In this document: piece after piece, positions 3,576 to 61,984 of the stretch
How the letters are laid out: each line of letters opens with the position of its first letter
Position numbering within the stretch: position 1 is the first letter of the stretch
Virus record (IMG/VR): IMGVR_UViG_3300025598_000024
Coordinates: 41,160-105,159 of that record
Strand: one strand, 5' to 3'
Source of the DNA: a virus
Length of the DNA: 64,000 nt
Made by a program: the position numbers and the translations under genes
The notes under the pieces: generated by a model
Databases searched by the model: none
Seen by the model: the letters and a program-made list of their open reading frames with translations, nothing else
What the model was told of the DNA's origin: nothing

Positions 3576-3924
3576 GGTTCGTGCTCCTTACTGCGTTGAA
3601 CTCACTTGACCTGCCTGCAAACGTACTGATCTTATCATTGATCCAGTTGCGCGTCTCACTGTCATAGTCATCCAGGTCACGGCCTGTCGGACCAATCGCT
3701 GACACATTACCACGGCTGATCAGCATGAAGCGCCACTTTACCTCAGGCACTTCACGGTCTAGCTCTTCGTGCCCATAGATCTGAATCCAGTTCTCGTCCA
3801 GCCCACACAAGAAACCCTCGTAGATGAAACCATCGCTGAACACTCTGATCTCTTTCTTGCGTGATGACATGATGGCCAGATTCCTTTCGAACATCTGATC
3901 ATCGGGTTGTGCTAACTTACTCAT
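3553..3924 (-). CDS. hypothetical protein
   Basis: ORF in the operon with overlapping ends. Confidence 0.6.
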   Translation of the reverse strand: MSKLAQPDDQMFERNLAIMSSRKKEIRVFSDGFIYEGFLCGLDENWIQIYGHEELDREVPEVKWRFMLISRGNVSAIGPTGRDLDDYDSETRNWINDKISTFAGRSSEFNAVRSTNRGKRENV

Positions 3925-13131: not shown

Positions 13132-13174
13132 TACCCTGAGGGGGACTTGAACCCCCACCCCATGGAGTATACCA
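13132..13174 (-). pseudogene. 3' half of a split class II (Leu-type) tRNA
   Basis: TGG + 15-nt variable region + GGGGG-TTCAAGT-CCCCC + TCAGGGT + A73; begins immediately after the HNH stop. Confidence 0.85.
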
Positions 13175-13624
13175 TTATTTTTTCTTGTGTGCTGCTGTTT
13201 TCAATGCATGGCAGTTAGGGCACAAAATTTGTAAGTTCTCCAAAGAATTATCAAAATGATCACTGTTGATATGGTCTAGCTCTAGCGGTGCTGGTTGCCC
13301 CAACCATTCTGTTATCCCACAGACCTCACAAATGGCTTCTTTAATACCCTCCTTGATAAGTTTTAACCTTAACTTCCCAGAATGGATTGGCTGCCTATTA
13401 GATAGGTACTCTTCGATATCAACTTTATTCCTGGCTGGTCTTCCTTTTGTAAAGCTTTTGCCAACAAAATGTGAGTAATCAATACCTGCTTTTACAGCCC
13501 TATTTTTTAAATGGGTTTGTGACCCAGTCATTGGTTTTACGCCTATTTTTCTGCATGTATCAGCCCATGTAGTAGATGAAGCCACTGCATCAGCCAACTG
13601 TTGATCTGTATATCTATGTTTCAT
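13175..13624 (-). CDS. HNH homing-type endonuclease
   Basis: CEVCG...LELDHINSDHFDNSLENLQILCPNCHA; AT-rich. Confidence 0.92.
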   Translation of the reverse strand: MKHRYTDQQLADAVASSTTWADTCRKIGVKPMTGSQTHLKNRAVKAGIDYSHFVGKSFTKGRPARNKVDIEEYLSNRQPIHSGKLRLKLIKEGIKEAICEVCGITEWLGQPAPLELDHINSDHFDNSLENLQILCPNCHALKTAAHKKK

Positions 13625-13678
13625 GTATACTATAACACCACGTATACACTTTTACATTGTTTACATTGTTTTATATTG

Positions 13679-13762
13679 TGCCCCCGGTCAGACTCGAACT
13701 GACAAGACCTTACGGTCATTACCTCCTAAGGGTAACGTGTTTACCTATTTCACCACGGGGGC
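13679..13762 (-). tRNA. tRNA-Leu(TAG), nested inside the split tRNA
   Basis: GCCCCCG/CGGGGGC, TTACC-CT-TAG-GA-GGTAA, long variable arm, A73. Confidence 0.92.
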
Positions 13763-13802
13763 ATATCAAACCTGGCGCGTCTGCCTATTCCGCCATCAGG
13801 GC
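13763..13802 (-). pseudogene. 5' half of a split Leu-type tRNA
   Basis: GCCCTGA TG GCG-GAATAGGCAGA-CGC G CCAGG TT TGA TA; the acceptor strand pairs with TCAGGGT at 13133-13139. Confidence 0.85.
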
Positions 13803-13806
13803 TCTG

Positions 13807-13880
13807 TGCCCCAGGTGGGATTCGAACCCACACTACAAGGATTTTAAGTCCTCCTCCTCTGCCTGTTGGGATACTAGGGC
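13807..13880 (-). tRNA. tRNA-Leu(TAA) with short variable loop
   Basis: GCCCTAG/CTGGGGC, GAGGA-CT-TAA-AA-TCCTT, 5-nt variable loop. Confidence 0.9.
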
Positions 13881-13885
13881 TTCTG

Positions 13886-13967
13886 TGGGCCAGGTAGGAT
13901 TCGAACCTACGTAGCTTTACGCGGCGGTTTTACAGACCGCTTCCTTTGGCCGCTCGGACACTGACCC
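13886..13967 (-). tRNA. tRNA-Tyr(GTA)
   Basis: GGGTCAG/CTGGCCC, GCGGT-CT-GTA-AA-ACCGC, long variable arm. Confidence 0.93.
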
Positions 13968-13978
13968 ATTCTACTGCG

Positions 13979-14052
13979 TCGGAATGACAGGATTCGAACC
14001 TGCGACATCTGCGTCCCAAACGCAGCGCTCTACCAAGCTGAGCTACATTCCG
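13979..14052 (-). tRNA. tRNA-Pro(TGG)
   Basis: CGGAATG/CATTCCG, CTGCG-TT-TGG-GA-CGCAG. Confidence 0.93.
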
Positions 14053-14062
14053 TATACTGTTG

Positions 14063-14133
14063 TCCTCCTGGAGGGTACCGCCCCCTCTTTTCAGGATTAA
14101 AAGTCCCGTACATCACTTTAATGTTTCAGGAGG
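14063..14133 (-). tRNA. non-canonical tRNA-Lys(TTT)
   Basis: CCTCCTG/CAGGAGG, ACAT/ATGT D stem, CGGGA-CT-TTT-AA-TCCTG, GAGGG/CCCTC T stem; but A8, no D-loop GG, T loop GGCGGTA. Confidence 0.7.
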
Positions 14134-14605
14134 TTAAATATTCTTCTATTGATTCTTTCTTTTTTTCATACCATCCTAGTCTGATGTTGCAACTATAGCA
14201 CAGTAACCCTCTAACGCTACCAGTTTTGTGATCGTGATCAACACAAAAGTTTTTACCAGTAGAGCACCTATCGATCTTGCATATTCCACAGCGATGGTTT
14301 TGACCCTCTAGCATACTGTAGTAATCAGCAATAGTCAAACCAAATTTTCTAGTAGCAGATTTTATATTAAAACAATTTCTACAATATGCATTTTTATTGT
14401 TATCACCTTTGTAGGCACCACAGTATAAACATGGTTTTGGTGATGGTACATAACTGGAGTACCTAACTGAATGCTGTGCTCTAGCTGCGCAGCTTTGAGA
14501 ACAGTATAATCCTATATTCTTTTTTACTTGATAGGCATATCTTTTATATACATTGCTACAGTCAGTTCTACTGCATATTACTTGCTCTGATGTTCTAGTA
14601 GTCAT
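14126..14605 (-). CDS. endonuclease VII-family homing-type endonuclease
   Basis: CGIC...VDHDHKTGSVRGLLCYSCN..LG; N-terminal YCSQSC Zn motifs; AT-rich; AGGAG RBS. Confidence 0.88.
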   Translation of the reverse strand: MTTRTSEQVICSRTDCSNVYKRYAYQVKKNIGLYCSQSCAARAQHSVRYSSYVPSPKPCLYCGAYKGDNNKNAYCRNCFNIKSATRKFGLTIADYYSMLEGQNHRCGICKIDRCSTGKNFCVDHDHKTGSVRGLLCYSCNIRLGWYEKKKESIEEYLTS

Positions 14606-14650
14606 AGTCACTCTCCTGTGGCTACTAGTGCAAGTACAAGTATGAATTAA

Positions 14651-14678
14651 ATCACTCTACCAACTGAGTTACAGGGGC
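14651..14678 (-). pseudogene. 5' remnant of a canonical tRNA (acceptor strand + D arm)
   Basis: GCCCCTG TA ACTC-AGTTGGTA-GAGT G, then no anticodon or T arm. Confidence 0.75.
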
Positions 14679-42967: not shown

Positions 42968-43488
42968 TAGTAGGTCTTTCGCCCAGCATTGATAATATTA
43001 TTAATGGTTTCACCAAGCTTGGTTTCTTGAATAATCCTGACGGGGTCATCCACAGTCATGCCGCGTTCCCACTCTTGTGTGCTTCTTTCTACAGCACGCT
43101 CGATAAAGAATTGACCAGGCTCAGCCTGTTTTATCCATAGTGGCTTGCCATCTGTCAGGCTGCCATCGTCGGCAGATCTGGTTATGATGGGTAGCCTACC
43201 GACATCATTGCGGTTTATTCTTCTAAACGCCAGGCTGCCATCAGCTTCACGAATAGGAATAACACGATCAGAAACAGTTGTGATAGGCCGCTCTGGCTCT
43301 CCCTGATCGTACTTTAAAATGTACTGTGCGCTCTCTGGCACAACAATATCTACGATGCCATCCTGCCAGCTGGGCATGATCTGGTTGACTGCGTTAGCAG
43401 TCTTTTTAGGTGCAGTTGTTTTGATGATCTCAACAGCACGCCTGGATATTTTCTGTGTTTCACTGGCTGGTAATGGTATGTTGTTCAT
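42967..43488 (-). CDS. neck/tail completion protein
   Basis: AP.KT...W....PG..FIERAV; position. Confidence 0.5.
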   Translation of the reverse strand: MNNIPLPASETQKISRRAVEIIKTTAPKKTANAVNQIMPSWQDGIVDIVVPESAQYILKYDQGEPERPITTVSDRVIPIREADGSLAFRRINRNDVGRLPIITRSADDGSLTDGKPLWIKQAEPGQFFIERAVERSTQEWERGMTVDDPVRIIQETKLGETINNIINAGRKTY

Positions 43489-44168
43489 ATTATCGGCACG
43501 TTATAGTATGGGTGTGTGGTTGGCAGATTGTAAAGCGTAGTGAACTGATTGACTATTTTTGTTGTGTCATAGCTGATCCCTGGACCAGTCCTGACAGTTT
43601 GAACGTTAACTGAGCTCACTTCAAAACGGTCACCCAGCGCGGTTGGTGTGTCACCATCCCAGGAGAGCACTCTGACCAGCAGATCGCCAACCCGGATCTC
43701 TGGATACCATGACATCTGAACAGTTGGATTGTCTCGCCAGAACTGACCGGTGCTGATGTTGGCGCGGATCTGTGGAGTATCCGCAGCCAGTGTGTACAGG
43801 TGGTAGCAGGTTGTTTTGAAACCACCATTGAATGTGGTGCCATAGCAGTTCGGGCAAAAGCTATTGCCTGACTGCTTATAAACATTGCTCACACGAGACT
43901 GTACAGAAGCATTGGGATTGGTAGGATCAACACTGTCCTGGCACTGCTGACAGTAGCCAACCAGACCCAGCGCAGCATCTTCTGCACGCCAGAGCTGTCT
44001 TACAATAATCTGTTCACCGAACCACTGCAGAGTCTCGTCATGAAAGCGCTGCTGATTAATCTCAGCATAGATATCTCTTTGCTTTACTACAAGCAAAGGG
44101 CTTTCTTTCTGGTAGTAAAGATCTCCCTGCTGCACTGGTGGCAGTGGAGATGGGTCAATACCAGACAT
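43485..44168 (-). CDS. head-tail joining (stopper-like) protein
   Basis: CQQC...CPNCYGTTF.GG, P.IR.GDL.V; position. Confidence 0.6.
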   Translation of the reverse strand: MSGIDPSPLPPVQQGDLYYQKESPLLVVKQRDIYAEINQQRFHDETLQWFGEQIIVRQLWRAEDAALGLVGYCQQCQDSVDPTNPNASVQSRVSNVYKQSGNSFCPNCYGTTFNGGFKTTCYHLYTLAADTPQIRANISTGQFWRDNPTVQMSWYPEIRVGDLLVRVLSWDGDTPTALGDRFEVSSVNVQTVRTGPGISYDTTKIVNQFTTLYNLPTTHPYYNVPII

Positions 44169-44171
44169 TGT

Positions 44172-44798
44172 TTATACGCCACCCATGTTAGCTGCGAACT
44201 CAGCGACTTCATTTTCCCAAACCACGCGGGCGGACCAACCCTGCTCTGCATACCAATCAATAAGATCTTGCGGGTTCTCGCCGCGATGCCAGTAGGTTCC
44301 CCAAACTTCTACAATCTCACGGGTGTCACGTTTAACATAATCGGGAATATGTACGCCAACTTTAGGGTTACCAATAAAGTAACGTTTATCCTGTGTGCTA
44401 ACGTAGCCAAGTGGTTCTAATACCGGCTTTAGAGAAAGCTCTACTTTAGAAGATTTGTTGTTCGAGCCATAGACATTAAGAAACTTACCTTCCTTATGAA
44501 GGCGAACATTCTTTTCAGACATCTTCTTGCGAAAACTATAATCATATTTATGCTTTGCTAGGCGCTTAAGGTTGCGTGCACGCTGTTCTTCAAACGTAAC
44601 TGTGCGGATATAATGCCCTGCAACGAAACGATTTTGGCGATACTTATTTGTTCTAACAGTTTCACCACAACCACAACCGCATAAAACTTCACGGTCCTGG
44701 CATCCTGGGCATGTTTTACGGTCTGGACCACCACGAGTTTTAATCTGTTCTTTTTTTTCTTTACAAACACGGCACACATATTGGAGAGTAACTGGCAT
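44172..44798 (-). CDS. free-standing endonuclease (Zn/NUMOD-like N-terminus, DUF559/Vsr-like PD-(D/E)xK C-terminus)
   Basis: LCGCGCGE...RFVAGH; SKVE; IPD....IVEV.G.YWH...GW....VWE. Confidence 0.8.
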   Translation of the reverse strand: MPVTLQYVCRVCKEKKEQIKTRGGPDRKTCPGCQDREVLCGCGCGETVRTNKYRQNRFVAGHYIRTVTFEEQRARNLKRLAKHKYDYSFRKKMSEKNVRLHKEGKFLNVYGSNNKSSKVELSLKPVLEPLGYVSTQDKRYFIGNPKVGVHIPDYVKRDTREIVEVWGTYWHRGENPQDLIDWYAEQGWSARVVWENEVAEFAANMGGV

Positions 44799-44799
44799 A

Positions 44800-45690
44800 T
44801 TAAACTCCTCCAAGGTTGGCTGAAGCGTACTGAAAATGCGGCCTTGCTGGATTGATAAACATTCGTGGGATAAGACCACCAGCAACCAGCAGGCTTCGCT
44901 TGCTTCCTACCATGAAGCTACGCTTCATCTGACGCAGCTGCTTGTCAGCGATTTCCTTGTCGAACAGATATAGCTGCCACCAGCGTTGGTAGTAGTCACG
45001 ACGATCCATCCAGGCAGCATTCATACCGTTGGGTGTGGGCTGCTCGATGTAGTTACGAGCGATGTGTTTCAGAAAGTGAGCATAGGTCTGGCTGGCCAGA
45101 ACGCCGTACCAGTTACTGGGGAAGATCACCGCAGCATTAGCACCTATCTCATAGGCTGGATTGAATACTGGTTGAAACTCAAAATTGATATAGTCAATGG
45201 CTTCTGTGCTCATTACCATGGCAACTTCTTCGTACATCAAGAAACCACTCTGCTGCATCTCCTGCAGGTAAGGGCCACCACTGGTGCTGTCAAAACTTTT
45301 GTCCAGTCGGTGTACTATTCCTGCTGCCAGCTGACGCTCATCATAACTCAGATTGCTCCAGTATGGCATCTGATCTGTTATGACCAGTTGATCAGTGTAC
45401 TGCCTGTCACTGCCATTCACTGTGTATTGCCAGTTGACGTTATAGTTGCCCTGGATAGCAGTCTGTGAGCTGTCCAACATATACTGGAAGGTCCCAGTAG
45501 ATTCTTGAGTAGCGTATGTGCCACTGGGAACTATTGTCAGACTACCGTCAGTGCTGGTTATGCTCAGACTTACATCAGGAAAAGTATTACCGCTCACCGT
45601 GATAAGATCAGGGTCAGTTAGAACCCCGTTAGAATAGGTCATTATACCAACGGGTTCTACTGCATACTGTGGGAACGGACGTACTCTCAT
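44800..45690 (-). CDS. head-to-tail adaptor-like protein
   Basis: position; D.FDS..GGP.L..., DRRDY..RW. Confidence 0.6.
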   Translation of the reverse strand: MRVRPFPQYAVEPVGIMTYSNGVLTDPDLITVSGNTFPDVSLSITSTDGSLTIVPSGTYATQESTGTFQYMLDSSQTAIQGNYNVNWQYTVNGSDRQYTDQLVITDQMPYWSNLSYDERQLAAGIVHRLDKSFDSTSGGPYLQEMQQSGFLMYEEVAMVMSTEAIDYINFEFQPVFNPAYEIGANAAVIFPSNWYGVLASQTYAHFLKHIARNYIEQPTPNGMNAAWMDRRDYYQRWWQLYLFDKEIADKQLRQMKRSFMVGSKRSLLVAGGLIPRMFINPARPHFQYASANLGGV

Positions 45691-47971: not shown

Positions 47972-49507
47972 TTAGTACCAGATCTCAATAATGCCAGCGG
48001 CACCGGCACCACCGGCTCCACCGGCACCTGAACCTGAGCCACCGTTGTAGGAACCGCCACCGCCGCCACCGCCACCGCAACCGGGTGTCGTTGCCGTTGC
48101 GCCTGTGCCGCCATTGACGGTTGGATTTGAGCCGGGATTTGTTATTTGGTAAGTGACCAATGCAGCATTCGCAGCGGCTGATGCAAGACCACCAAGACCG
48201 CCAGTAGTGGCCGTTGCCGCAGTGCCACCGGAGCCGCCGACTACGCCTTGATTAGGTGGTGCGGAGTTGGTGTTTGAGGGTCCGCCACTGCCGGGGTTGT
48301 TCTGTGACGATGAACTGTTGCCGCCGCTGCTTAGTCCGGCTGCTGCGTACATACCACCATTGGAGTTTGTTGTGGCGTTGGCGTTGCTTCCCGGTGCCGG
48401 TGCACCACCGTTGGCTTGTGCCAGCACTGTCGAAGTATTAGTGTCGGTCAGTTTAGTGGTACTACTACTATTACCACCGAACCCACCATTGTTGCCACCA
48501 GCAGCACCACCGGCTCCACCGGCTCCACCGGCTCCAATCGTGGCGGTCAACGTATGCCCAGCAGTCACGGCAACGTTGACGATTTTGACTTCACCGCCAC
48601 CGCCACCGCCGGCTCCCACTTGGAGAACATTGGTACTCGGTGAGCCGCCACCACCGCCACCGGCTCCACCGCCGACTAGTCGAACAATGACGTTGCTAAT
48701 GCCACTCGGGACAACCCATGTGCTACCAGTGGTGGTAAGAGCAACGTAAGCGGTACCGGAAACACCTTGGAACCCTTGGTTGCCCTGCGTACCCTGCGTC
48801 CCCTGATTACCTTGGAAGCCTTGGTTCCCCTGGAAACCTTGAAAGCCTTGGAAACCTTGATAGCCCTGAGTCCCTTGATAGCCTTGATTGCCTTGTACTC
48901 CCTGGTAACCCTGATATCCCTGATTTCCTTGATAACCTTGGTATCCCTGTGTACCTTTAAGACCTTGATAGCCCTGACTGCCCTGGTAACCTTGATTTCC
49001 TTGGGTTCCCTGCGGTCCAGGAATAGGCACAAAGATTGCTGTCTTGTCGATATACCAGGTATTGCTAACTGCAGTGAACGCAGCTGTCCCAGGCACATAG
49101 ATCTCACCAATAAGCATGGTGCCAGCCGGTACAGCTGGCTTGACCGGAGGATCAGTGATGCTACCATTGTTCCATCCAGCCAGTGTTATAGCAGTGCCCT
49201 GAACGACTGATACTGTTGTGCCACTGACAACTACAATGTCACGACGGTCTCCCGTGCTAGCAGCAACGGTTGTAAAGCTTGCTGCTGAGACACTGGTATT
49301 TGTTCCACTGATGGAATATGTTCCAGGCGTTAGATTGCCACTGATCACAGTGCCACTGGGGTTGGTCAGGTTCCCTGACAGCTGGAAGCCACTGATAACA
49401 CCGGTTGCCTGGCCGAGCAGGTACAAAGAGCTAAGGTCGGTATTATCCAGTACAGCCTGAGCTGGCCAGGTTGGATTGTTCTGTGATTCGGGAATGATCA
49501 AAGCCAT
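47972..49507 (-). CDS. collagen-like fibre protein with glycine-rich C-terminal domain
   Basis: R.D.VV..GT..V..GT...P.KP..P N-domain; about 28 G-x-Q triplets; W.VP.G....V.LVGGG.GGG domain. Confidence 0.8.
   Translation of the reverse strand: MALIIPESQNNPTWPAQAVLDNTDLSSLYLLGQATGVISGFQLSGNLTNPSGTVISGNLTPGTYSISGTNTSVSAASFTTVAASTGDRRDIVVVSGTTVSVVQGTAITLAGWNNGSITDPPVKPAVPAGTMLIGEIYVPGTAAFTAVSNTWYIDKTAIFVPIPGPQGTQGNQGYQGSQGYQGLKGTQGYQGYQGNQGYQGYQGVQGNQGYQGTQGYQGFQGFQGFQGNQGFQGNQGTQGTQGNQGFQGVSGTAYVALTTTGSTWVVPSGISNVIVRLVGGGAGGGGGGSPSTNVLQVGAGGGGGGEVKIVNVAVTAGHTLTATIGAGGAGGAGGAAGGNNGGFGGNSSSTTKLTDTNTSTVLAQANGGAPAPGSNANATTNSNGGMYAAAGLSSGGNSSSSQNNPGSGGPSNTNSAPPNQGVVGGSGGTAATATTGGLGGLASAAANAALVTYQITNPGSNPTVNGGTGATATTPGCGGGGGGGGSYNGGSGSGAGGAGGAGAAGIIEIWY
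48765..49019 (-). repeat. collagen (G-x-Q)n 9-bp-period repeat
   Basis: GPQ GTQ GNQ GYQ ... GFQ. Confidence 0.9.
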
Positions 49508-58420: not shown

Positions 58421-58604
58421 CCTCGAGCTTCTCGTAGATACTGTTCTCAAGGTTCAGTTTGTTAGCATTGCGTGCTGTAAGCCCTTCGCCCTCTTTGATA
58501 ATATCTATCTTGACCAGTGGGCTAACAATATCCAGGAAGCTGCTCTTGTTAAAAGATGTCTTTGGCAGGATTCTGGGTGAACGATCATCAAATAATCTGC
58601 TCAT
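58410..58604 (-). CDS. small hypothetical protein
   Basis: ATGA overlap with the portal stop. Confidence 0.55.
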   Translation of the reverse strand: MSRLFDDRSPRILPKTSFNKSSFLDIVSPLVKIDIIKEGEGLTARNANKLNLENSIYEKLEDDD

Positions 58605-61600
58605 ATGTTTTCCTCTTTAGTAGGATCGATCTGTCGTCGTGCTGGTTGATTCATTCCACCCTCGCCATCGCTATGGTGATCAAGATCAGTTGGCTCAGGA
58701 ATCATTGGGTCTTCACTAGCTTCTATGAGCGCCGCAAGGTGCGATTTAAATTGATCTTCATCAAACTTTTCATAGCTGTCATCAAGAGTTACCTTGATGC
58801 CACTGGCCAGCTTCATCTTCCTGCGCTTACGGCTCTCCAGAGGTGTTGCGAACTTCATTCTGCCACCGTACTCAACACGTTCATTGATAACGCTGCCATC
58901 ACCAAAACTGGTTGTTAGCTCTTCGTCATCAACACCAGCTGTCTTTTTCTGTGGCCCATTCTTGGGGCCCTTCTTGCTGGGCTTTGGCTGTGTTTTCTTT
59001 TGATCGTATGATTCAGCTGGACGCTTGCGTTCTGTACCACGCTGTGTCTGGGTCTGCTGCTGTGCTTCCTGGTTGATCATTGGGTACAGCTGAGCACCCA
59101 GTGCAGCATCACTATTTTGTGCTGGCACGCCGGTCATGTTGGGAGCAGCTGGTGGTGTAACAAGTCCAGCAATTGCACCTGGTGCTAGCTGTGCAGCTAT
59201 TGCTGGGTTCTCCATCATTGCAAGATAGGCCTGGTATTCCTGAATGTATTCTGGTGGGATTGGTAGTTGTTGCACCAACAGCTGCTGGAAGAGCTCTCGC
59301 TTGAACTGCTGTTCAGCTACAACGCTCTTTACCTTCTCTTCACGACGAGTCTCTAGCTCGTCATCAAAGTCAATCGGGATGTTGACCGCAAGAGTGCCCA
59401 GACTGATGGGAAAGCCTGCAGCCATCAGGTTCTGCAGGAAGCCTCGCTCAATGGTTTCATCACGCAGGTTCATGCTGCGGAAACGCACTTCTGGGATGGC
59501 CAGCTTGGGTCGCTCTTCGATGTACTCAGCACCGGTCTCTTCATCCACCATGAGAACAGTTTCCATGATTGGCAGTGTCCTACCATTCACTGTACGCATC
59601 TCATAGTGGCCCTGACGCTCTGCGACAGGCTCCATACGGCTGCGAATAAAGCCCTCTATCTTGTGCTGATAGGTACTAAGCATCTGTGTGATCAGTTCGC
59701 GGTTAAGTGCACCACTAGCGTATGTACCACCATGGCCACCCTGCAGCAGGTCAGAGCCAATGCCGAACACCTGCATGATCTTGCTCTCAACACGCATGAA
59801 GTCAGCATCCAGTCGTGGCATGCTCTCACGACCAAAGGCATTCTGAATTTGTAGTCCATGGTGATAGGTCATCAATCGGAAGTCCGAGTTGATTGCCATG
59901 CTCAGGTCATCTCTCAGGCTCTGGAGCTCAGTAGCATCAGGGATCCATGGTCCGTCCTGGTCTACGTCAGGAAGACCCAGAGTAGCAAGTATGAGAGGGC
60001 TATATAGGCGATCAGCAATTGCATCTTGAGCAGCGTTGAGAGACTCCTCAAGCATAAGCATGCGAAAAGCACGAAGCAGAATAGGAGTACCATGCTCACT
60101 CCAGGGGTTAGTATTGTGCGTTACAAGGCCAGCAGTAATGTGGGTATGGTGCTCATCAATTCCAATGGCCATTGTTTCTTCATCAATACCCATTTCAATT
60201 TTTACAATTTGATCATATGGGAATTTAGATGGGCGTGTATTTCTAATAGGCGTAGTGTTAGGAACTTGCTTTCTTGAACAAAGCGGTTGCACATAATGAG
60301 ATAGCAAAGACTTAGCCTCTTGCTTGCCAACAATGAGACGGTGACCATAACCAGAATCCGGTGCATAGTCATATTTAGGCACGTCATAGATTCTTGATTC
60401 TACTCCAAGGAATGACAACAATGTTTGACAATCTTCAAGCAGTGAACGGTTCATACTAGTCCATACAACCATGCCATTTGAGTCAACATGACCATCAGTA
60501 TCTAGATAACCAGCAAGAAAAGCTCCCCAAACTTCAGGCCCACCATCCCAAATACAAGACGGGACTCTCTTTGTATAAGTAGTTTGCCCCTTGATACCAG
60601 CATCTACGATTAATTTCTTGATTAAATTAGGATTTTTTGTTTGTTCACCCTGTGAAATAACGAATGATATCTCACGGTCACCGGCTTGCGATAGTTTGCA
60701 ACCATATCCGGCAACGAATTCATTCATCCAATTTAGTATTTCTTTGTCTTCATTGTGGAAAATAATCGTTTTATGGCCATAGCTACCATCACCAACCATT
60801 AAACCAAAGAATCTTGCTTCATCGGTCGATACATTGCTGGTCATCTCAGGATTATACGAATGGCCGACCAACAAATTTGTTCCGATAGAAAGATCGGCAG
60901 CTTCTACCCAGCCATTATCAGTAAGGAATGGGTGCTCCGAGTTAACACCAATCTTTCGACCTTGCTTAGTCGTGATCCAATAGATTGGTTCTGGTTCATT
61001 AATACCTTGGTGACTAACGGTGCTGCGAACAATCTTATTCGTAGTCTCATCCCATGCGAGCACTTCATCGCCAACAGCAAGGTCTCTTGCCTGGACAGGA
61101 CCAGTTGGGGTCATTATATCAGTAGAACCAACAACGCACTTGAACTTGATCTGTTTCATGATCACGTCACTGACAGGGATCTCTTTGTCCTGACGTGCCC
61201 AGGCAACAACGTCTGGATACATCTGCATGAGCATCTGATATTCCTGTGAAGGGTCACGAGTCTCAATAAGCTTTTTGATCTCCTGAGGTACCTTTACATG
61301 GTACTGATAGGTGCGTAGCGCTCGGTTCTTTGCAACGATAACGTCATTTGGATTGATGATTTCATCATCTTCCCAGGCACCAATACCATCGTGCCAGCTG
61401 CCCATGGCAAACACTTCACCAACGGTCCAGTGTTCACGGCCCAGGTCAAACAGGAACTCCTGATAGTTTAGACCATCAAAGAACATCTCGTTGTAGAAGT
61501 CACTGATGCGCTTGTCGTGATGGACGAGCTCAATGTCAAGGAGTGGGAAACGCGTGTAGATATCAATAAGACCTGGTACCAGGTAGTGTGTGGTGTAAAG

Positions 61601-61984
61601 CAGGCGAGTCCAGTCACGGATTTTACGTGTTTGTTCGTCGGGGTCCTCCATGTTGAACCACCAGGTACGCTCACGCCAGTATTCGAATGGGTCGTGAAGC
61701 TTGGGCCAGGCCCACTGAGCATCACTCCCAGTGGCAGCAGCAGTACGGCCAAGAGTACGGGATACACCGCCCTCCATGTTAACCCTGCCACCCATCGTAT
61801 TGAGTCGCTCACGGCCTTCCGTAGGCATTCTGGCAACATCACTAGCGAAAGATCCTCCGGTACGAACATTGCGTAGCAGCTCTTGCGTTTCAAGGCGATT
61901 GCGCACGGGGTTGCTAGAGCCAGTAATACCGGCTTTGCGCATGTTGTTAAGCTCCGCTGAGGCGCTCCAGTCTTTGGATGGCAT
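58601..61984 (-). CDS. portal protein containing an intein
   Basis: ID.Y.RFPL, REHW..GE.F, INP..V, PW..HG.P.L.R, FGI...L.G; upstream of protease/capsid. Confidence 0.8.
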   Translation of the reverse strand: MPSKDWSASAELNNMRKAGITGSSNPVRNRLETQELLRNVRTGGSFASDVARMPTEGRERLNTMGGRVNMEGGVSRTLGRTAAATGSDAQWAWPKLHDPFEYWRERTWWFNMEDPDEQTRKIRDWTRLLYTTHYLVPGLIDIYTRFPLLDIELVHHDKRISDFYNEMFFDGLNYQEFLFDLGREHWTVGEVFAMGSWHDGIGAWEDDEIINPNDVIVAKNRALRTYQYHVKVPQEIKKLIETRDPSQEYQMLMQMYPDVVAWARQDKEIPVSDVIMKQIKFKCVVGSTDIMTPTGPVQARDLAVGDEVLAWDETTNKIVRSTVSHQGINEPEPIYWITTKQGRKIGVNSEHPFLTDNGWVEAADLSIGTNLLVGHSYNPEMTSNVSTDEARFFGLMVGDGSYGHKTIIFHNEDKEILNWMNEFVAGYGCKLSQAGDREISFVISQGEQTKNPNLIKKLIVDAGIKGQTTYTKRVPSCIWDGGPEVWGAFLAGYLDTDGHVDSNGMVVWTSMNRSLLEDCQTLLSFLGVESRIYDVPKYDYAPDSGYGHRLIVGKQEAKSLLSHYVQPLCSRKQVPNTTPIRNTRPSKFPYDQIVKIEMGIDEETMAIGIDEHHTHITAGLVTHNTNPWSEHGTPILLRAFRMLMLEESLNAAQDAIADRLYSPLILATLGLPDVDQDGPWIPDATELQSLRDDLSMAINSDFRLMTYHHGLQIQNAFGRESMPRLDADFMRVESKIMQVFGIGSDLLQGGHGGTYASGALNRELITQMLSTYQHKIEGFIRSRMEPVAERQGHYEMRTVNGRTLPIMETVLMVDEETGAEYIEERPKLAIPEVRFRSMNLRDETIERGFLQNLMAAGFPISLGTLAVNIPIDFDDELETRREEKVKSVVAEQQFKRELFQQLLVQQLPIPPEYIQEYQAYLAMMENPAIAAQLAPGAIAGLVTPPAAPNMTGVPAQNSDAALGAQLYPMINQEAQQQTQTQRGTERKRPAESYDQKKTQPKPSKKGPKNGPQKKTAGVDDEELTTSFGDGSVINERVEYGGRMKFATPLESRKRRKMKLASGIKVTLDDSYEKFDEDQFKSHLAALIEASEDPMIPEPTDLDHHSDGEGGMNQPARRQIDPTKEENI
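60113..61138 (-). mobile_element. LAGLIDADG intein, 342 aa
   Basis: Cys1 (CVVGST), block B SEHPFL, GLMVGDGS and LAGYLDTDG, terminal HN followed by Thr+1; AT-richer than the exteins. Confidence 0.92.

What the first reader, a model, noticed from the sequence alone, without database searches (positions are those of the whole stretch)
44172..44820. Endonuclease ends in a duplicate of the adaptor C-terminus; the recoded copy forms its Shine-Dalgarno site
Seen: the adaptor ends ...SANLGGV* (GCC AAC CTT GGA GGA GTT TAA, 44820-44800) and the nuclease ends ...AANMGGV* (GCT AAC ATG GGT GGC GTA TAA, 44192-44172). They differ at 6 of 21 nt, five at third codon positions. The downstream copy lies 3 nt before the next structural ATG, where the adaptor end would be expected. 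The upstream Gly-Gly codons read GGAGGAG, 6 nt before the nuclease ATG. Inference: the nuclease inserted in the last codons of an essential gene, fused to the old terminus, and supplied a new terminus that both destroys the site and drives its own translation.
Basis: partly seen in the sequence, partly recalled or inferred. Interest (0 to 1): 0.8.

Follow-up and report, generated by a model that had tools for sequence, protein, structure and literature searches.

The report
Homing nuclease that replaces a gene's end
A selfish DNA-cutting-enzyme gene has inserted about seven codons before the stop of a phage neck gene: it brings a re-spelled copy of those codons so the neck protein stays whole, and it uses the displaced original codons as its own ending, a trick known from fungal mitochondria and yeast that I did not find described for phages.

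Summary

**The layout**
- The 296-aa neck gene (44800-45690, minus strand) ends SANLGGV-stop.
- The adjacent 208-aa gene (44172-44798) ends AANMGGV-stop.
- That gene encodes zinc ribbons plus a Vsr-like nuclease domain. Its nearest solved fold among homing enzymes is I-Bth0305I.

**Evidence that it is an insertion**
- More than 20 relatives have no nuclease. Their neck gene ends N-M/A-G-G-x-stop directly before the next structural gene. In the closest one (L011) this stretch matches the nuclease's 3' end at 18 of 18 nt.
- L060 (filled) and L023 (empty) are nearly the same phage. The native end is untouched and reads as the nuclease's last codons, with 1002 nt identical downstream.
- In that pair, the last 33 nt of the neck gene carry 9 changes, 7 of them silent. 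The next 620 nt upstream carry none.

**Evidence that the ending belongs to the locus**
- Nuclease relatives at other loci lack this ending.
- One distant relative (L092) ends in a copy of its own, different upstream neighbour's end.

**What is not shown**
- Cleavage of the empty allele was not tested.
- The Shine-Dalgarno geometry is inherited from the native junction; it was strengthened, not invented.

This scan has noted the same layout before on other DNA, including sister phages. I rate it a new variant of a known kind.

The parts
44800..45690 (-). Neck gene, probably the head-to-tail adaptor (296 aa): N-terminal Ig-like sandwich, helical domain, conserved extended C-terminal arm
   Evidence: ORF. 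PHROG 2791, function unknown. It lies between the major head gene and the tail sheath gene. In the AlphaFold model, residues 115-270 align at Z about 8 to adaptor/neck chains of several phage structures: Pa223, Carin-1, T4 gp13/gp14, phage 812, VP1, SU10. It is 29-37% identical to structural proteins of actinobacteriophage myoviruses.
44800..44823 (-). Replacement (imported) copy of the neck gene's last codons plus stop, ending SANLGGV-stop. By analogy with L060 the imported patch may reach about 33 nt (to 44832).
   Evidence: It differs from the native copy at 7 of 24 nt. In the near-isogenic pair L060/L023 the equivalent stretch carries 9 substitutions in 33 nt, next to 620 nt with none. The Leu codon CTT occurs only in filled alleles and goes with one nuclease clade.
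44805..44811 (-). GGAGGAG Shine-Dalgarno motif formed by the two Gly codons of the replacement copy, 6 nt before the nuclease ATG
   Evidence: Empty alleles show the same 6-nt geometry (GGTGGAG, then 6 nt, then the GTG start of the next gene).
44172..44798 (-). Free-standing homing-endonuclease-like gene (208 aa)
   Evidence: Single copy in the 105-kb virus record. 14 protein homologues. In every relative that has a close homologue (46% identity or more) and enough flanking sequence, it sits at this same junction.
44601..44798 (-). N-terminal zinc-ribbon region (CxxC...CxxC, CGCGCG...GH), the presumed DNA-binding module
   Evidence: Weak Zn_ribbon_8/FmdB hits. The module is duplicated in P0004, P0011 and P0012 and replaced by NUMOD3 repeats in P0014.
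44196..44465 (-). Vsr-like PD-(D/E)XK nuclease domain (residues 112-201)
   Evidence: Foldseek top hit is 3r3p, I-Bth0305I (E 0.011, prob 1.0), then Vsr. VIA-align gives Z 8.6 for 3hrl, 8.0 for 3r3p and 7.2 for 1cw0. The motifs PD and GxxWH align to Vsr. Invariant residues: E120, D153, E164, H171, E195.
44172..44195 (-). Native end of the neck gene (AANMGGV-stop), now read in frame as the nuclease's last codons and stop. It keeps the native spacing to the next gene.
   Evidence: 18/18 nt match to empty allele L011. The equivalent stretch in L060 is identical to empty L023, and so are the next 1002 nt. L055 and L058 share the cassette but diverge from the second codon of this stretch onward.
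43485..44168 (-). Next structural gene (227 aa, PHROG 2806), the native downstream neighbour of the neck gene
   Evidence: In empty alleles it starts 1-3 nt after the neck gene's stop.

Best explanation
This is a free-standing homing-endonuclease cassette of the Vsr-like (EDxHD-type) kind that spreads by replacing a gene's end. The mobile unit has two parts: a foreign, mostly synonymously re-spelled copy of the neck gene's last 8-11 codons plus stop, and a nuclease ORF without a C-terminus or stop of its own. It sits about 7-8 codons before the native stop. Shown: (a) the neck protein stays full length with the imported end; (b) the nuclease ORF runs in frame into the displaced native codons and uses the native stop, so the native Shine-Dalgarno and stop/start spacing for the next structural gene are untouched; (c) the two Gly codons of the imported end give the nuclease the same Shine-Dalgarno geometry that the native end gives the next gene; (d) presence is patchy among close relatives, and the junctions are recombination boundaries. 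Inferred: during co-infection the nuclease cuts nuclease-less alleles in or near the last ~30 nt of the neck gene, and repair copies the cassette from the filled genome. Also inferred: the re-spelling protects the carrier from cutting, or lowers loss by recombination between the two copies, or both.
For: Empty alleles: more than 20 distinct relatives end N-M/A-G-G-x-stop 1-3 nt before the next gene. L011 (98% aa identity in the neck protein) matches the nuclease 3' end at 18/18 nt, and both window copies map onto the same 21 nt of L011. Near-isogenic before/after pair: L060 and L023 have identical neck-protein cores. Downstream of the nuclease they are 100% identical for 1002 nt, starting at the native end. 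Upstream there are 9 mismatches in the last 33 nt (7 synonymous, Ala to Ser, Ala to Val, TAG to TGA), then none for 620 nt. The changes lying upstream of the duplicated stretch cannot be undone by recombination between the copies, so L023 is the ancestral state and L060 the gain. Same cassette, different right flank: L055 and L058 are 99.7% identical through the nuclease and diverge from the second codon of the native end onward. Patchiness: at least 4 gains or losses are forced on the neck-gene tree. Incongruence: window vs L055 is 74% in the neck protein but 91% in the nuclease; window vs L063 is 85% vs 51%. The ending is specific to the locus: homologues elsewhere lack it. Second locus: L092, whose nuclease core is homologous (hhalign prob 97%, E 3e-11), ends in RLRERLRR-stop, as does its unrelated upstream gene, and all 6 of 27 nt differences are synonymous. 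Nuclease identity: fold hits to I-Bth0305I and Vsr, conserved PD/EVxGTYWH motifs, and NUMOD3 in homologue P0014. Lower G+C than both flanks, 43.7 vs 48-49%.
Against: No cleavage assay, so activity and target site are unknown. Fold scores are middling (Z about 8; Foldseek E 0.01), and no Pfam or NCBIfam model reaches its threshold. In the L064 lineage the two copies share an 11-nt identical run and the same peptide, so heavy re-spelling is not obligatory. Window vs L055 nucleotide identity is only moderately higher in the nuclease (79%) than in the neck gene's 3' half (about 80%), so not every pair shows recent transfer. The L092 case has no empty allele to confirm it.
Confidence: 0.85

Rival explanations
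1. The repeat is a target-site duplication or local tandem duplication made when a transposon-like element inserted. Both copies would derive from the resident sequence and would have diverged afterwards.
For: Two direct copies of about 21-24 nt flank an inserted gene.
Against: In the near-isogenic pair L060/L023 the flanks are identical for 620 nt on one side and 1002 nt on the other. Yet the upstream copy already differs from the native sequence, and the changed patch (33 nt) extends beyond the duplicated stretch. That means imported DNA, not in-situ duplication followed by drift. There is no transposase, and no terminal inverted repeats lie at the junctions. The upstream copy follows the nuclease clade.
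Confidence: 0.03
2. The NMGGV ending is a functional part of the nuclease itself. It could be an intrinsic family motif, or a mimic of the adaptor's portal-binding arm that docks the nuclease on the neck. It would be kept by selection on the nuclease protein.
For: 13 of 14 database homologues and all locus-resident copies keep the peptide, despite many synonymous differences and nuclease identity as low as 44-50%.
Against: All those homologues whose context could be seen sit at the same junction. Family members elsewhere have unrelated endings. The spectrum of variants in the nuclease endings (A/S, A/V, V/A/M) equals that of native neck-gene ends. L055/L058 shows that the ending belongs to the recipient's background, not to the cassette. 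The last four residues are unstructured in the model.
Confidence: 0.05
3. The insertion history is as described, but the nuclease is no longer a homing enzyme. It is a domesticated or decaying passenger inherited vertically, and its patchiness comes from ordinary recombination between phages.
For: No activity data. Phage structural modules are mosaic anyway, and window vs L055 shows only a moderate identity excess in the nuclease.
Against: The ORF is intact in all 13 distinct filled alleles, with invariant catalytic-type residues. A very recent gain exists (L060 vs L023). Exchange boundaries fall exactly at the cassette edges. Nearly identical neck-gene backgrounds carry nucleases only about 50% identical to each other (L056 vs L069).
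Confidence: 0.1

Closest known systems
Mobile endonuclease ORFs (mORFs) that make 'gene hybrids' in fungal mitochondria: Allomyces macrogynus atp6; Glomus sp. atp6, atp9, cox2, nad3 (PMC3630166, read)
   Same: An endonuclease ORF sits in the 3' end of a host gene. It carries a foreign, diverged copy of the displaced C-terminal coding part in frame with the host gene. The native C-terminal part is left downstream and matches the sequence of close relatives without the insert.
   Different: The host here is a phage, not a mitochondrion. The nuclease is Vsr-like, not LAGLIDADG or GIY-YIG. The swapped piece is tiny (8-11 codons, against tens of codons). The native piece is not a silent relic: it is translated as the nuclease's own last codons and stop.
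WHO elements of Torulaspora/Lachancea yeasts, relatives of HO (PMC7282813; abstract read)
   Same: Homing elements that replace the 3' end of their target gene (FBA1) each time they integrate, without intron or intein splicing. Cleavage is allele-specific.
   Different: These are nuclear eukaryotic elements with an intein-like nuclease plus zinc fingers. They build clusters of old gene ends downstream. Cleavage has been shown experimentally there and has not been shown here.
EDxHD / Vsr-like homing endonucleases: I-Bth0305I (PDB 3r3p) and phage Hef-type enzymes (PMC3239194); also the 'fractured genes' with split inteins (PMC2677866, listed, not read)
   Same: A C-terminal Vsr-like catalytic fold, a variable modular N-terminal DNA-binding region, residence in phages, and free-standing members.
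   Different: I-Bth0305I is encoded in a group I intron in recA and uses NUMOD/HTH modules. This protein uses zinc ribbons, is only remotely similar in sequence (14% identity in the structural alignment), and keeps its host gene whole by replacing the gene end, not by splicing.
Intronless homing by free-standing endonucleases of T4-type phages (SegF, SegG, Mob). Stated from general knowledge, not checked here.
   Same: A free-standing nuclease gene between or next to essential phage genes. Spread occurs in mixed infection with co-conversion of flanking markers, and the carrier is protected by sequence differences at the cut site.
   Different: Those genes sit between complete genes. I did not find any described as entering a coding sequence and bringing a replacement gene end.

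Membership tests
EDxHD / Vsr-like homing endonucleases | C-terminal catalytic domain with the Vsr-type PD-(D/E)XK fold | tested here: met
   Model residues 112-208. Foldseek rank 1 is 3r3p (prob 1.0, E 0.011), rank 2 is 1vsr. VIA-align: Z 8.0, rmsd 3.0, 81 aligned for 3r3p; Z 7.2, 87 aligned, 21% identity for 1cw0. These scores are middling, but the same fold ranks first or near first in two programs.
EDxHD / Vsr-like homing endonucleases | Conserved catalytic residues equivalent to Vsr Asp51, His69 and Asp97 | tested here: inconclusive
   The profile alignment to Vsr pairs the PD of IPDY with Vsr PDF, and YWH with FWH. D153 and H171 are invariant. No equivalent of Asp97 could be assigned; E195 in WE is invariant among the close homologues, but two distant members of A3 have Asp there.
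EDxHD / Vsr-like homing endonucleases | Modular N-terminal DNA-binding region (NUMOD-type) | tested here: inconclusive
   This protein has zinc ribbons, not NUMODs. Homologue P0014 carries NUMOD3 above Pfam's cutoff.
EDxHD / Vsr-like homing endonucleases | Site-specific cleavage of the nuclease-less allele | not testable with these tools
   Needs an enzyme assay.
Gene-end-replacing homing elements (mORF / WHO type) | Endonuclease ORF inserted inside the 3' end of a host gene, with sporadic presence among close relatives | tested here: met
   Filled and empty alleles. At least 4 changes on the tree, and an identical neck-protein core in filled L060 and empty L023.
Gene-end-replacing homing elements (mORF / WHO type) | The element carries a foreign copy of the displaced gene end, in frame with the host gene | tested here: met
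   L060 vs L023: 9 changes in the last 33 nt, 7 of them silent, against 0 in the next 620 nt.
Gene-end-replacing homing elements (mORF / WHO type) | The native gene end is retained downstream and is closer to the relatives' sequence than the imported end is | tested here: met
   Window downstream copy matches L011 at 18/18 nt, against 12 of the same 18 nt for the upstream copy. The L060 downstream copy is identical to L023.
Gene-end-replacing homing elements (mORF / WHO type) | The endonuclease cuts the empty allele and the carrier allele is resistant | not testable with these tools
   Inferred only.
Transposon with target-site duplication | Identical duplication of resident sequence at insertion, a transposase, and terminal inverted repeats | tested here: not met
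   The upstream copy is foreign even in a very recent insertion. No inverted repeats at the junctions. The only gene in the insert is the nuclease.
Head-to-tail adaptor (label given to the host gene) | Fold and genome position of a portal-binding adaptor | tested here: inconclusive
   Its position between head and sheath genes fits. The helical domain matches several adaptor/neck chains, but only at Z 7.6-8.5, and no PHROG function is assigned.

The most novel reading that the evidence does not exclude
Running into the host gene's native last codons may be a built-in habit of this Vsr-like nuclease family, not an accident of one locus. On this reading the family's members lack a fixed C-terminus and stop. 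They enter a few codons before the stop of whatever gene they target, and they borrow its final codons, stop and ribosome-binding context, so that translation of the next gene is left exactly as before. That would make them unusually harmless invaders of tightly packed phage operons. Two unrelated loci show the layout: this neck gene, and the membrane-protein gene in L092.
Probability: 0.3. Interest if true: 0.7.

Novelty: new variant of a known kind. Interest (0 to 1): 0.58.

Why it matters
It gives a clean natural record, with before-and-after alleles, of how a free-standing homing endonuclease can enter an essential, tightly packed phage structural operon. No intron or intein is involved, the host protein keeps its full length, and the translation signals of the next gene are left in place.

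It adds a third way for the Vsr-like (EDxHD) family to keep its host gene working, beside introns and split inteins. It also extends gene-end replacement, known from fungal mitochondria and yeast, to phages.

In practice, such cassettes mark exchange boundaries in phage genomes. They can mislead gene callers and annotators, who may read the repeated C-terminal peptide as a nuclease motif or miss the gene-end chimera. They also point to a roughly 30-nt stretch where a new sequence-specific nuclease probably cuts.

Tried and rejected
The contexts of proteins P0001-P0014 could not be looked up directly, so I used scans of viral and metagenome contigs instead.
- **DNA search** of the region against isolated phages found nothing. 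A protein search with the nuclease found nothing there either.
- **Family models:** Pfam, NCBIfam and PHROGs gave no significant family for the nuclease. The PDB sequence and profile searches gave only weak Vsr hits.
- **Neck-protein fold:** the Foldseek PDB search was dominated by Ig-like domains and told nothing about function.
- **Empty allele for L092:** a search of viral contigs for the second locus found nothing.
- **More family members:** wider scans with the nuclease-domain alignment A3 found no new loci in viral contigs and none in prokaryote genomes.
- **Literature:** searches for a described phage case of gene-end replacement by a homing endonuclease found none. This is a limited search, not proof of absence.
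- **Considered and rejected:**
  - chance resemblance (plus the empty alleles);
  - target-site duplication;
  - an intrinsic nuclease motif;
  - loss of the cassette as the explanation for L023, because the changed patch reaches beyond the repeat.
- **Other inserts at the same junction:** the small 'VDWNQRYA' genes seen there in some relatives do not duplicate the gene end. They are a different kind of insert.
- **Not run:** Complex prediction, and the sequencing-read tools.

Full report
**1. The observation**

The window is part of a 105-kb uncultured virus record, and almost all long ORFs lie on the minus strand. The region is a myovirus structural module. Reading along the minus strand it contains:
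- a portal gene and a major head gene;
- a 298-aa gene;
- the 296-aa gene at 44800-45690;
- a 208-aa gene at 44172-44798;
- genes of 227, 173 and 222 aa;
- the tail sheath and tube genes.

The 296-aa protein ends SANLGGV-stop (44820-44800) and the 208-aa protein ends AANMGGV-stop (44192-44172). The two 21-nt stretches differ at six positions, five of them third codon positions. GGAGGAG (44811-44805) lies 6 nt before the ATG at 44798, and the next gene's ATG (44168) lies 3 nt after the second stop. Within the window this is the only pair of C-terminal heptapeptides, among 2415 pairs, with five or more identities.

**2. What the two genes are**

*The 208-aa protein.* It has no significant Pfam, NCBIfam or PHROG family.
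- Its N-terminal third holds CxxC/CxxC and CGCGCG...GH zinc-ribbon motifs.
- Its C-terminal 97 residues, modelled with an alignment of 15 homologues (mean pLDDT 76), fold as a Vsr-like PD-(D/E)XK nuclease.
- Foldseek's best PDB hit is the catalytic domain of the homing endonuclease I-Bth0305I, followed by E. coli Vsr.
- VIA-align gives Z 8.6 for 3hrl, 8.0 for 3r3p and 7.2 for 1cw0.
- A profile search aligns its PD and GxxWH motifs to those of Vsr. These residues are invariant in the family.
- One homologue (P0014) has NUMOD3 repeats, a hallmark of phage homing endonucleases, in place of the zinc ribbons.
- I-Bth0305I is the prototype of the 'EDxHD' family, which has intron-borne, intein-associated and free-standing phage members (PMC3239194).

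*The 296-aa protein.* It has an Ig-like N-terminal domain and a helical domain. The helical domain repeatedly matches head-to-tail adaptor or neck chains of solved phage necks at Z about 8. It also has a low-confidence but highly conserved C-terminal arm. 'Adaptor' is therefore a reasonable but not a secure label. The nearest isolated relatives are structural proteins of actinobacteriophage myoviruses, at 29-37% identity.

**3. Empty alleles**

A scan of viral contigs with the neck protein gave 44 loci. In more than 20 distinct ones the neck gene is followed, 1-3 nt after its stop, by the 227-aa gene's homologue, and it ends (A/S)(A/V)N(M/A)GG(V/A/M/I)-stop.

The closest empty allele, L011 (98% protein identity), ends SANMGGV-stop. 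Its last 18 nt are identical to the 3' end of the window's nuclease gene. BLAST of the window against L011 gives two alignments that both cover L011 positions 3871-3891.

**4. A natural before-and-after pair**

On the neck-gene tree, filled L060 and empty L023 have identical protein cores. At DNA level:
- They are 99.0% identical over 2224 nt upstream of the junction and 99.7% over 2522 nt downstream.
- Downstream, identity is perfect for 1002 nt. It starts at the native end of the neck gene (AVNMGGA-stop), which in L060 forms the nuclease's last codons.
- Upstream, nine mismatches fall in the last 33 nt of the neck gene: seven synonymous, Ala to Ser, Ala to Val, and TAG to TGA. The next 620 nt have none.

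So the insert brought a foreign copy of about 11 terminal codons with it. Several of the changes lie upstream of the duplicated stretch, so recombination between the two copies could not regenerate the L023 sequence. L023 is therefore the ancestral state and L060 the gain. This also rules out an in-situ or target-site duplication. No inverted repeats flank the gene.

**5. The native end belongs to the recipient**

L055 and L058 are 99.7% identical from far upstream through the nuclease. They diverge from the second codon of the native end onward, into different downstream backgrounds; one has an extra small gene.

The variants seen in nuclease endings (A/S, A/V, V/A/M) are the same as those in native neck-gene ends. 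This explains why the peptide looks conserved in nucleases that are only about 50% identical. No function in the nuclease needs to be invoked.

**6. Mobility signals**

- Presence is patchy, with at least four changes forced by well-supported branches.
- Nuclease and neck-gene similarities are incongruent. Window vs L055 is 74% in the neck protein and 91% in the nuclease; window vs L063 is 85% and 51%. The sister backgrounds L056 and L069 carry nucleases that are 91% and 52% identical to the window's.
- The nuclease gene has lower G+C than both flanks, 43.7 against 48-49%. This is weak evidence.
- Window vs L055 nucleotide identity is 79% in the nuclease, 68% in the neck gene's core and 60% in the next gene.

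**7. The ending is tied to the locus, and the layout recurs**

A metagenome scan gave 41 loci. Every close homologue (46% identity or more) that sits after the neck gene, and whose 3' end lies within the contig, ends in the NMGG-type peptide (NLGG in L056).

Homologues elsewhere end differently:
- L074 (42% identity);
- L075, where the nuclease sits upstream of the neck gene;
- L076-L095, L009 and L010.

One distant member, L092, has a homologous nuclease core (hhalign probability 97%, E 3e-11). It ends RLRERLRR-stop, and so does its unrelated upstream gene, a predicted membrane protein. All 6 differences in 27 nt are synonymous, and AAGGAGG sits in the downstream copy before the next gene. 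No empty allele was found for it, so this second case is suggestive, not proven.

**8. The Shine-Dalgarno point**

In empty alleles the Gly-Gly codons read GGTGGAG. They lie 6 nt before the GTG start of the next gene, often with an overlapping stop and start. The cassette's left junction reproduces this geometry for the nuclease. Five of seven nuclease lineages have GGAGG there, against a minority of empty alleles.

The replacement copy therefore keeps, and often strengthens, an existing signal. By running into the native end, the nuclease ORF also leaves the signal for the next gene untouched.

**9. Mechanism**

*Shown:*
- the structure of the cassette;
- its foreign left patch;
- the retained native end;
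- the recombination boundaries at its edges;
- its sporadic distribution.

*Inferred:*
- The enzyme cuts empty alleles in or near the last ~30 nt of the neck gene during mixed infection.
- Repair from the filled genome copies the cassette.
- The re-spelling protects the carrier from cutting, or reduces loss by recombination between the two direct copies, or both.

In the L064 lineage the two copies encode the same peptide and share an 11-nt run, so heavy re-spelling is not universal.

**10. Comparison with what is known**

The same logic is documented for mobile endonuclease ORFs in fungal mitochondria: Allomyces atp6 and Glomus atp6, atp9, cox2 and nad3 (PMC3630166). It is also documented for yeast WHO elements, which replace the 3' end of FBA1 (PMC7282813).

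My literature searches found no phage description. A paper on nucleases at exchange boundaries in phages (PMC10448857) fits the boundary pattern seen here but does not describe gene-end replacement.

This case differs from the fungal ones in four ways:
- the host is a phage;
- the nuclease is Vsr-like;
- the swapped piece is very small;
- the native piece is used as the nuclease's own terminus and stop.

**11. Earlier notes of this scan**

The scan has recorded this layout before on other DNA. That includes the same nuclease family in sister phages and other nuclease families at other genes. Those notes are unchecked leads. I re-derived the sister-phage alleles independently from loci L032/L061 and L052/L064. 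I took the WHO paper as a lead from one note and checked its abstract.

**Verdict:** real, well supported, and a new variant of a known kind of selfish element.

Noticed in passing
window 58601-61984 (-): The 1127-aa portal protein carries an intein with a LAGLIDADG endonuclease domain at about residues 283-624 (Pfam Intein_splicing, PT-HINT and LAGLIDADG_3; the PHROG portal match resumes at residue 621). This is another selfish element in the same structural module.
   Followed up: partly
L013:3893-4249, L025:3854-4222, L031:3854-4240, L036:3867-4304, L053:3861-4692: In several relatives the same junction between the neck gene and the next gene holds one or two small genes (118-152 aa, starting VDWNQRYA or MNWNKRYA) of unknown function. 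They do not duplicate the neck gene's end. In L056 and L058 such a gene probably follows the nuclease: there is a 355-373 nt gap there, and the L058 frame begins like the L031 gene.
   Followed up: partly
L075:3-281 and 272-1138: A nuclease homologue (57% identity in the core) sits immediately upstream of the neck gene and overlaps its start. Its own unrelated ending is ...RRSLCE. This suggests a second insertion site for the family in this phage group. The contig is too short to show the gene upstream.
   Followed up: no
L092:472-2218 (and L091): A distant family member ends in the same eight residues (RLRERLRR) as its unrelated upstream gene, a predicted membrane protein. All nucleotide differences are silent, and an AAGGAGG motif precedes the next gene. 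No empty allele was found.
   Followed up: partly
L056:3104-3127: The native-end copy behind the nuclease in L056 reads Leu (CTT) and stops at TAA, like the imported upstream copy. This may reflect gene conversion between the two copies, or a crossover inside the repeat.
   Followed up: no
window 47972-49507 (-): A 511-aa protein with a long collagen-like run of G-x-Q-G-type triplets, followed by a Gly/Ala/Ser-rich region. It is probably a fibre or decoration protein.
   Followed up: no
window 44799-44885 (-): The nuclease's reading frame stays open for 29 codons upstream of its ATG, to a TTG at 44885, and overlaps the end of the neck gene. There is no sign that this extension is used, and it is probably chance.
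   Followed up: no
window 13132-14678: Earlier notes of this scan report HNH and Endo VII nuclease cassettes that split tRNA genes in this same genome and bring replacement tRNAs. If so, 'bring your own replacement part' is a repeated theme in this phage. I did not check this.
   Followed up: no
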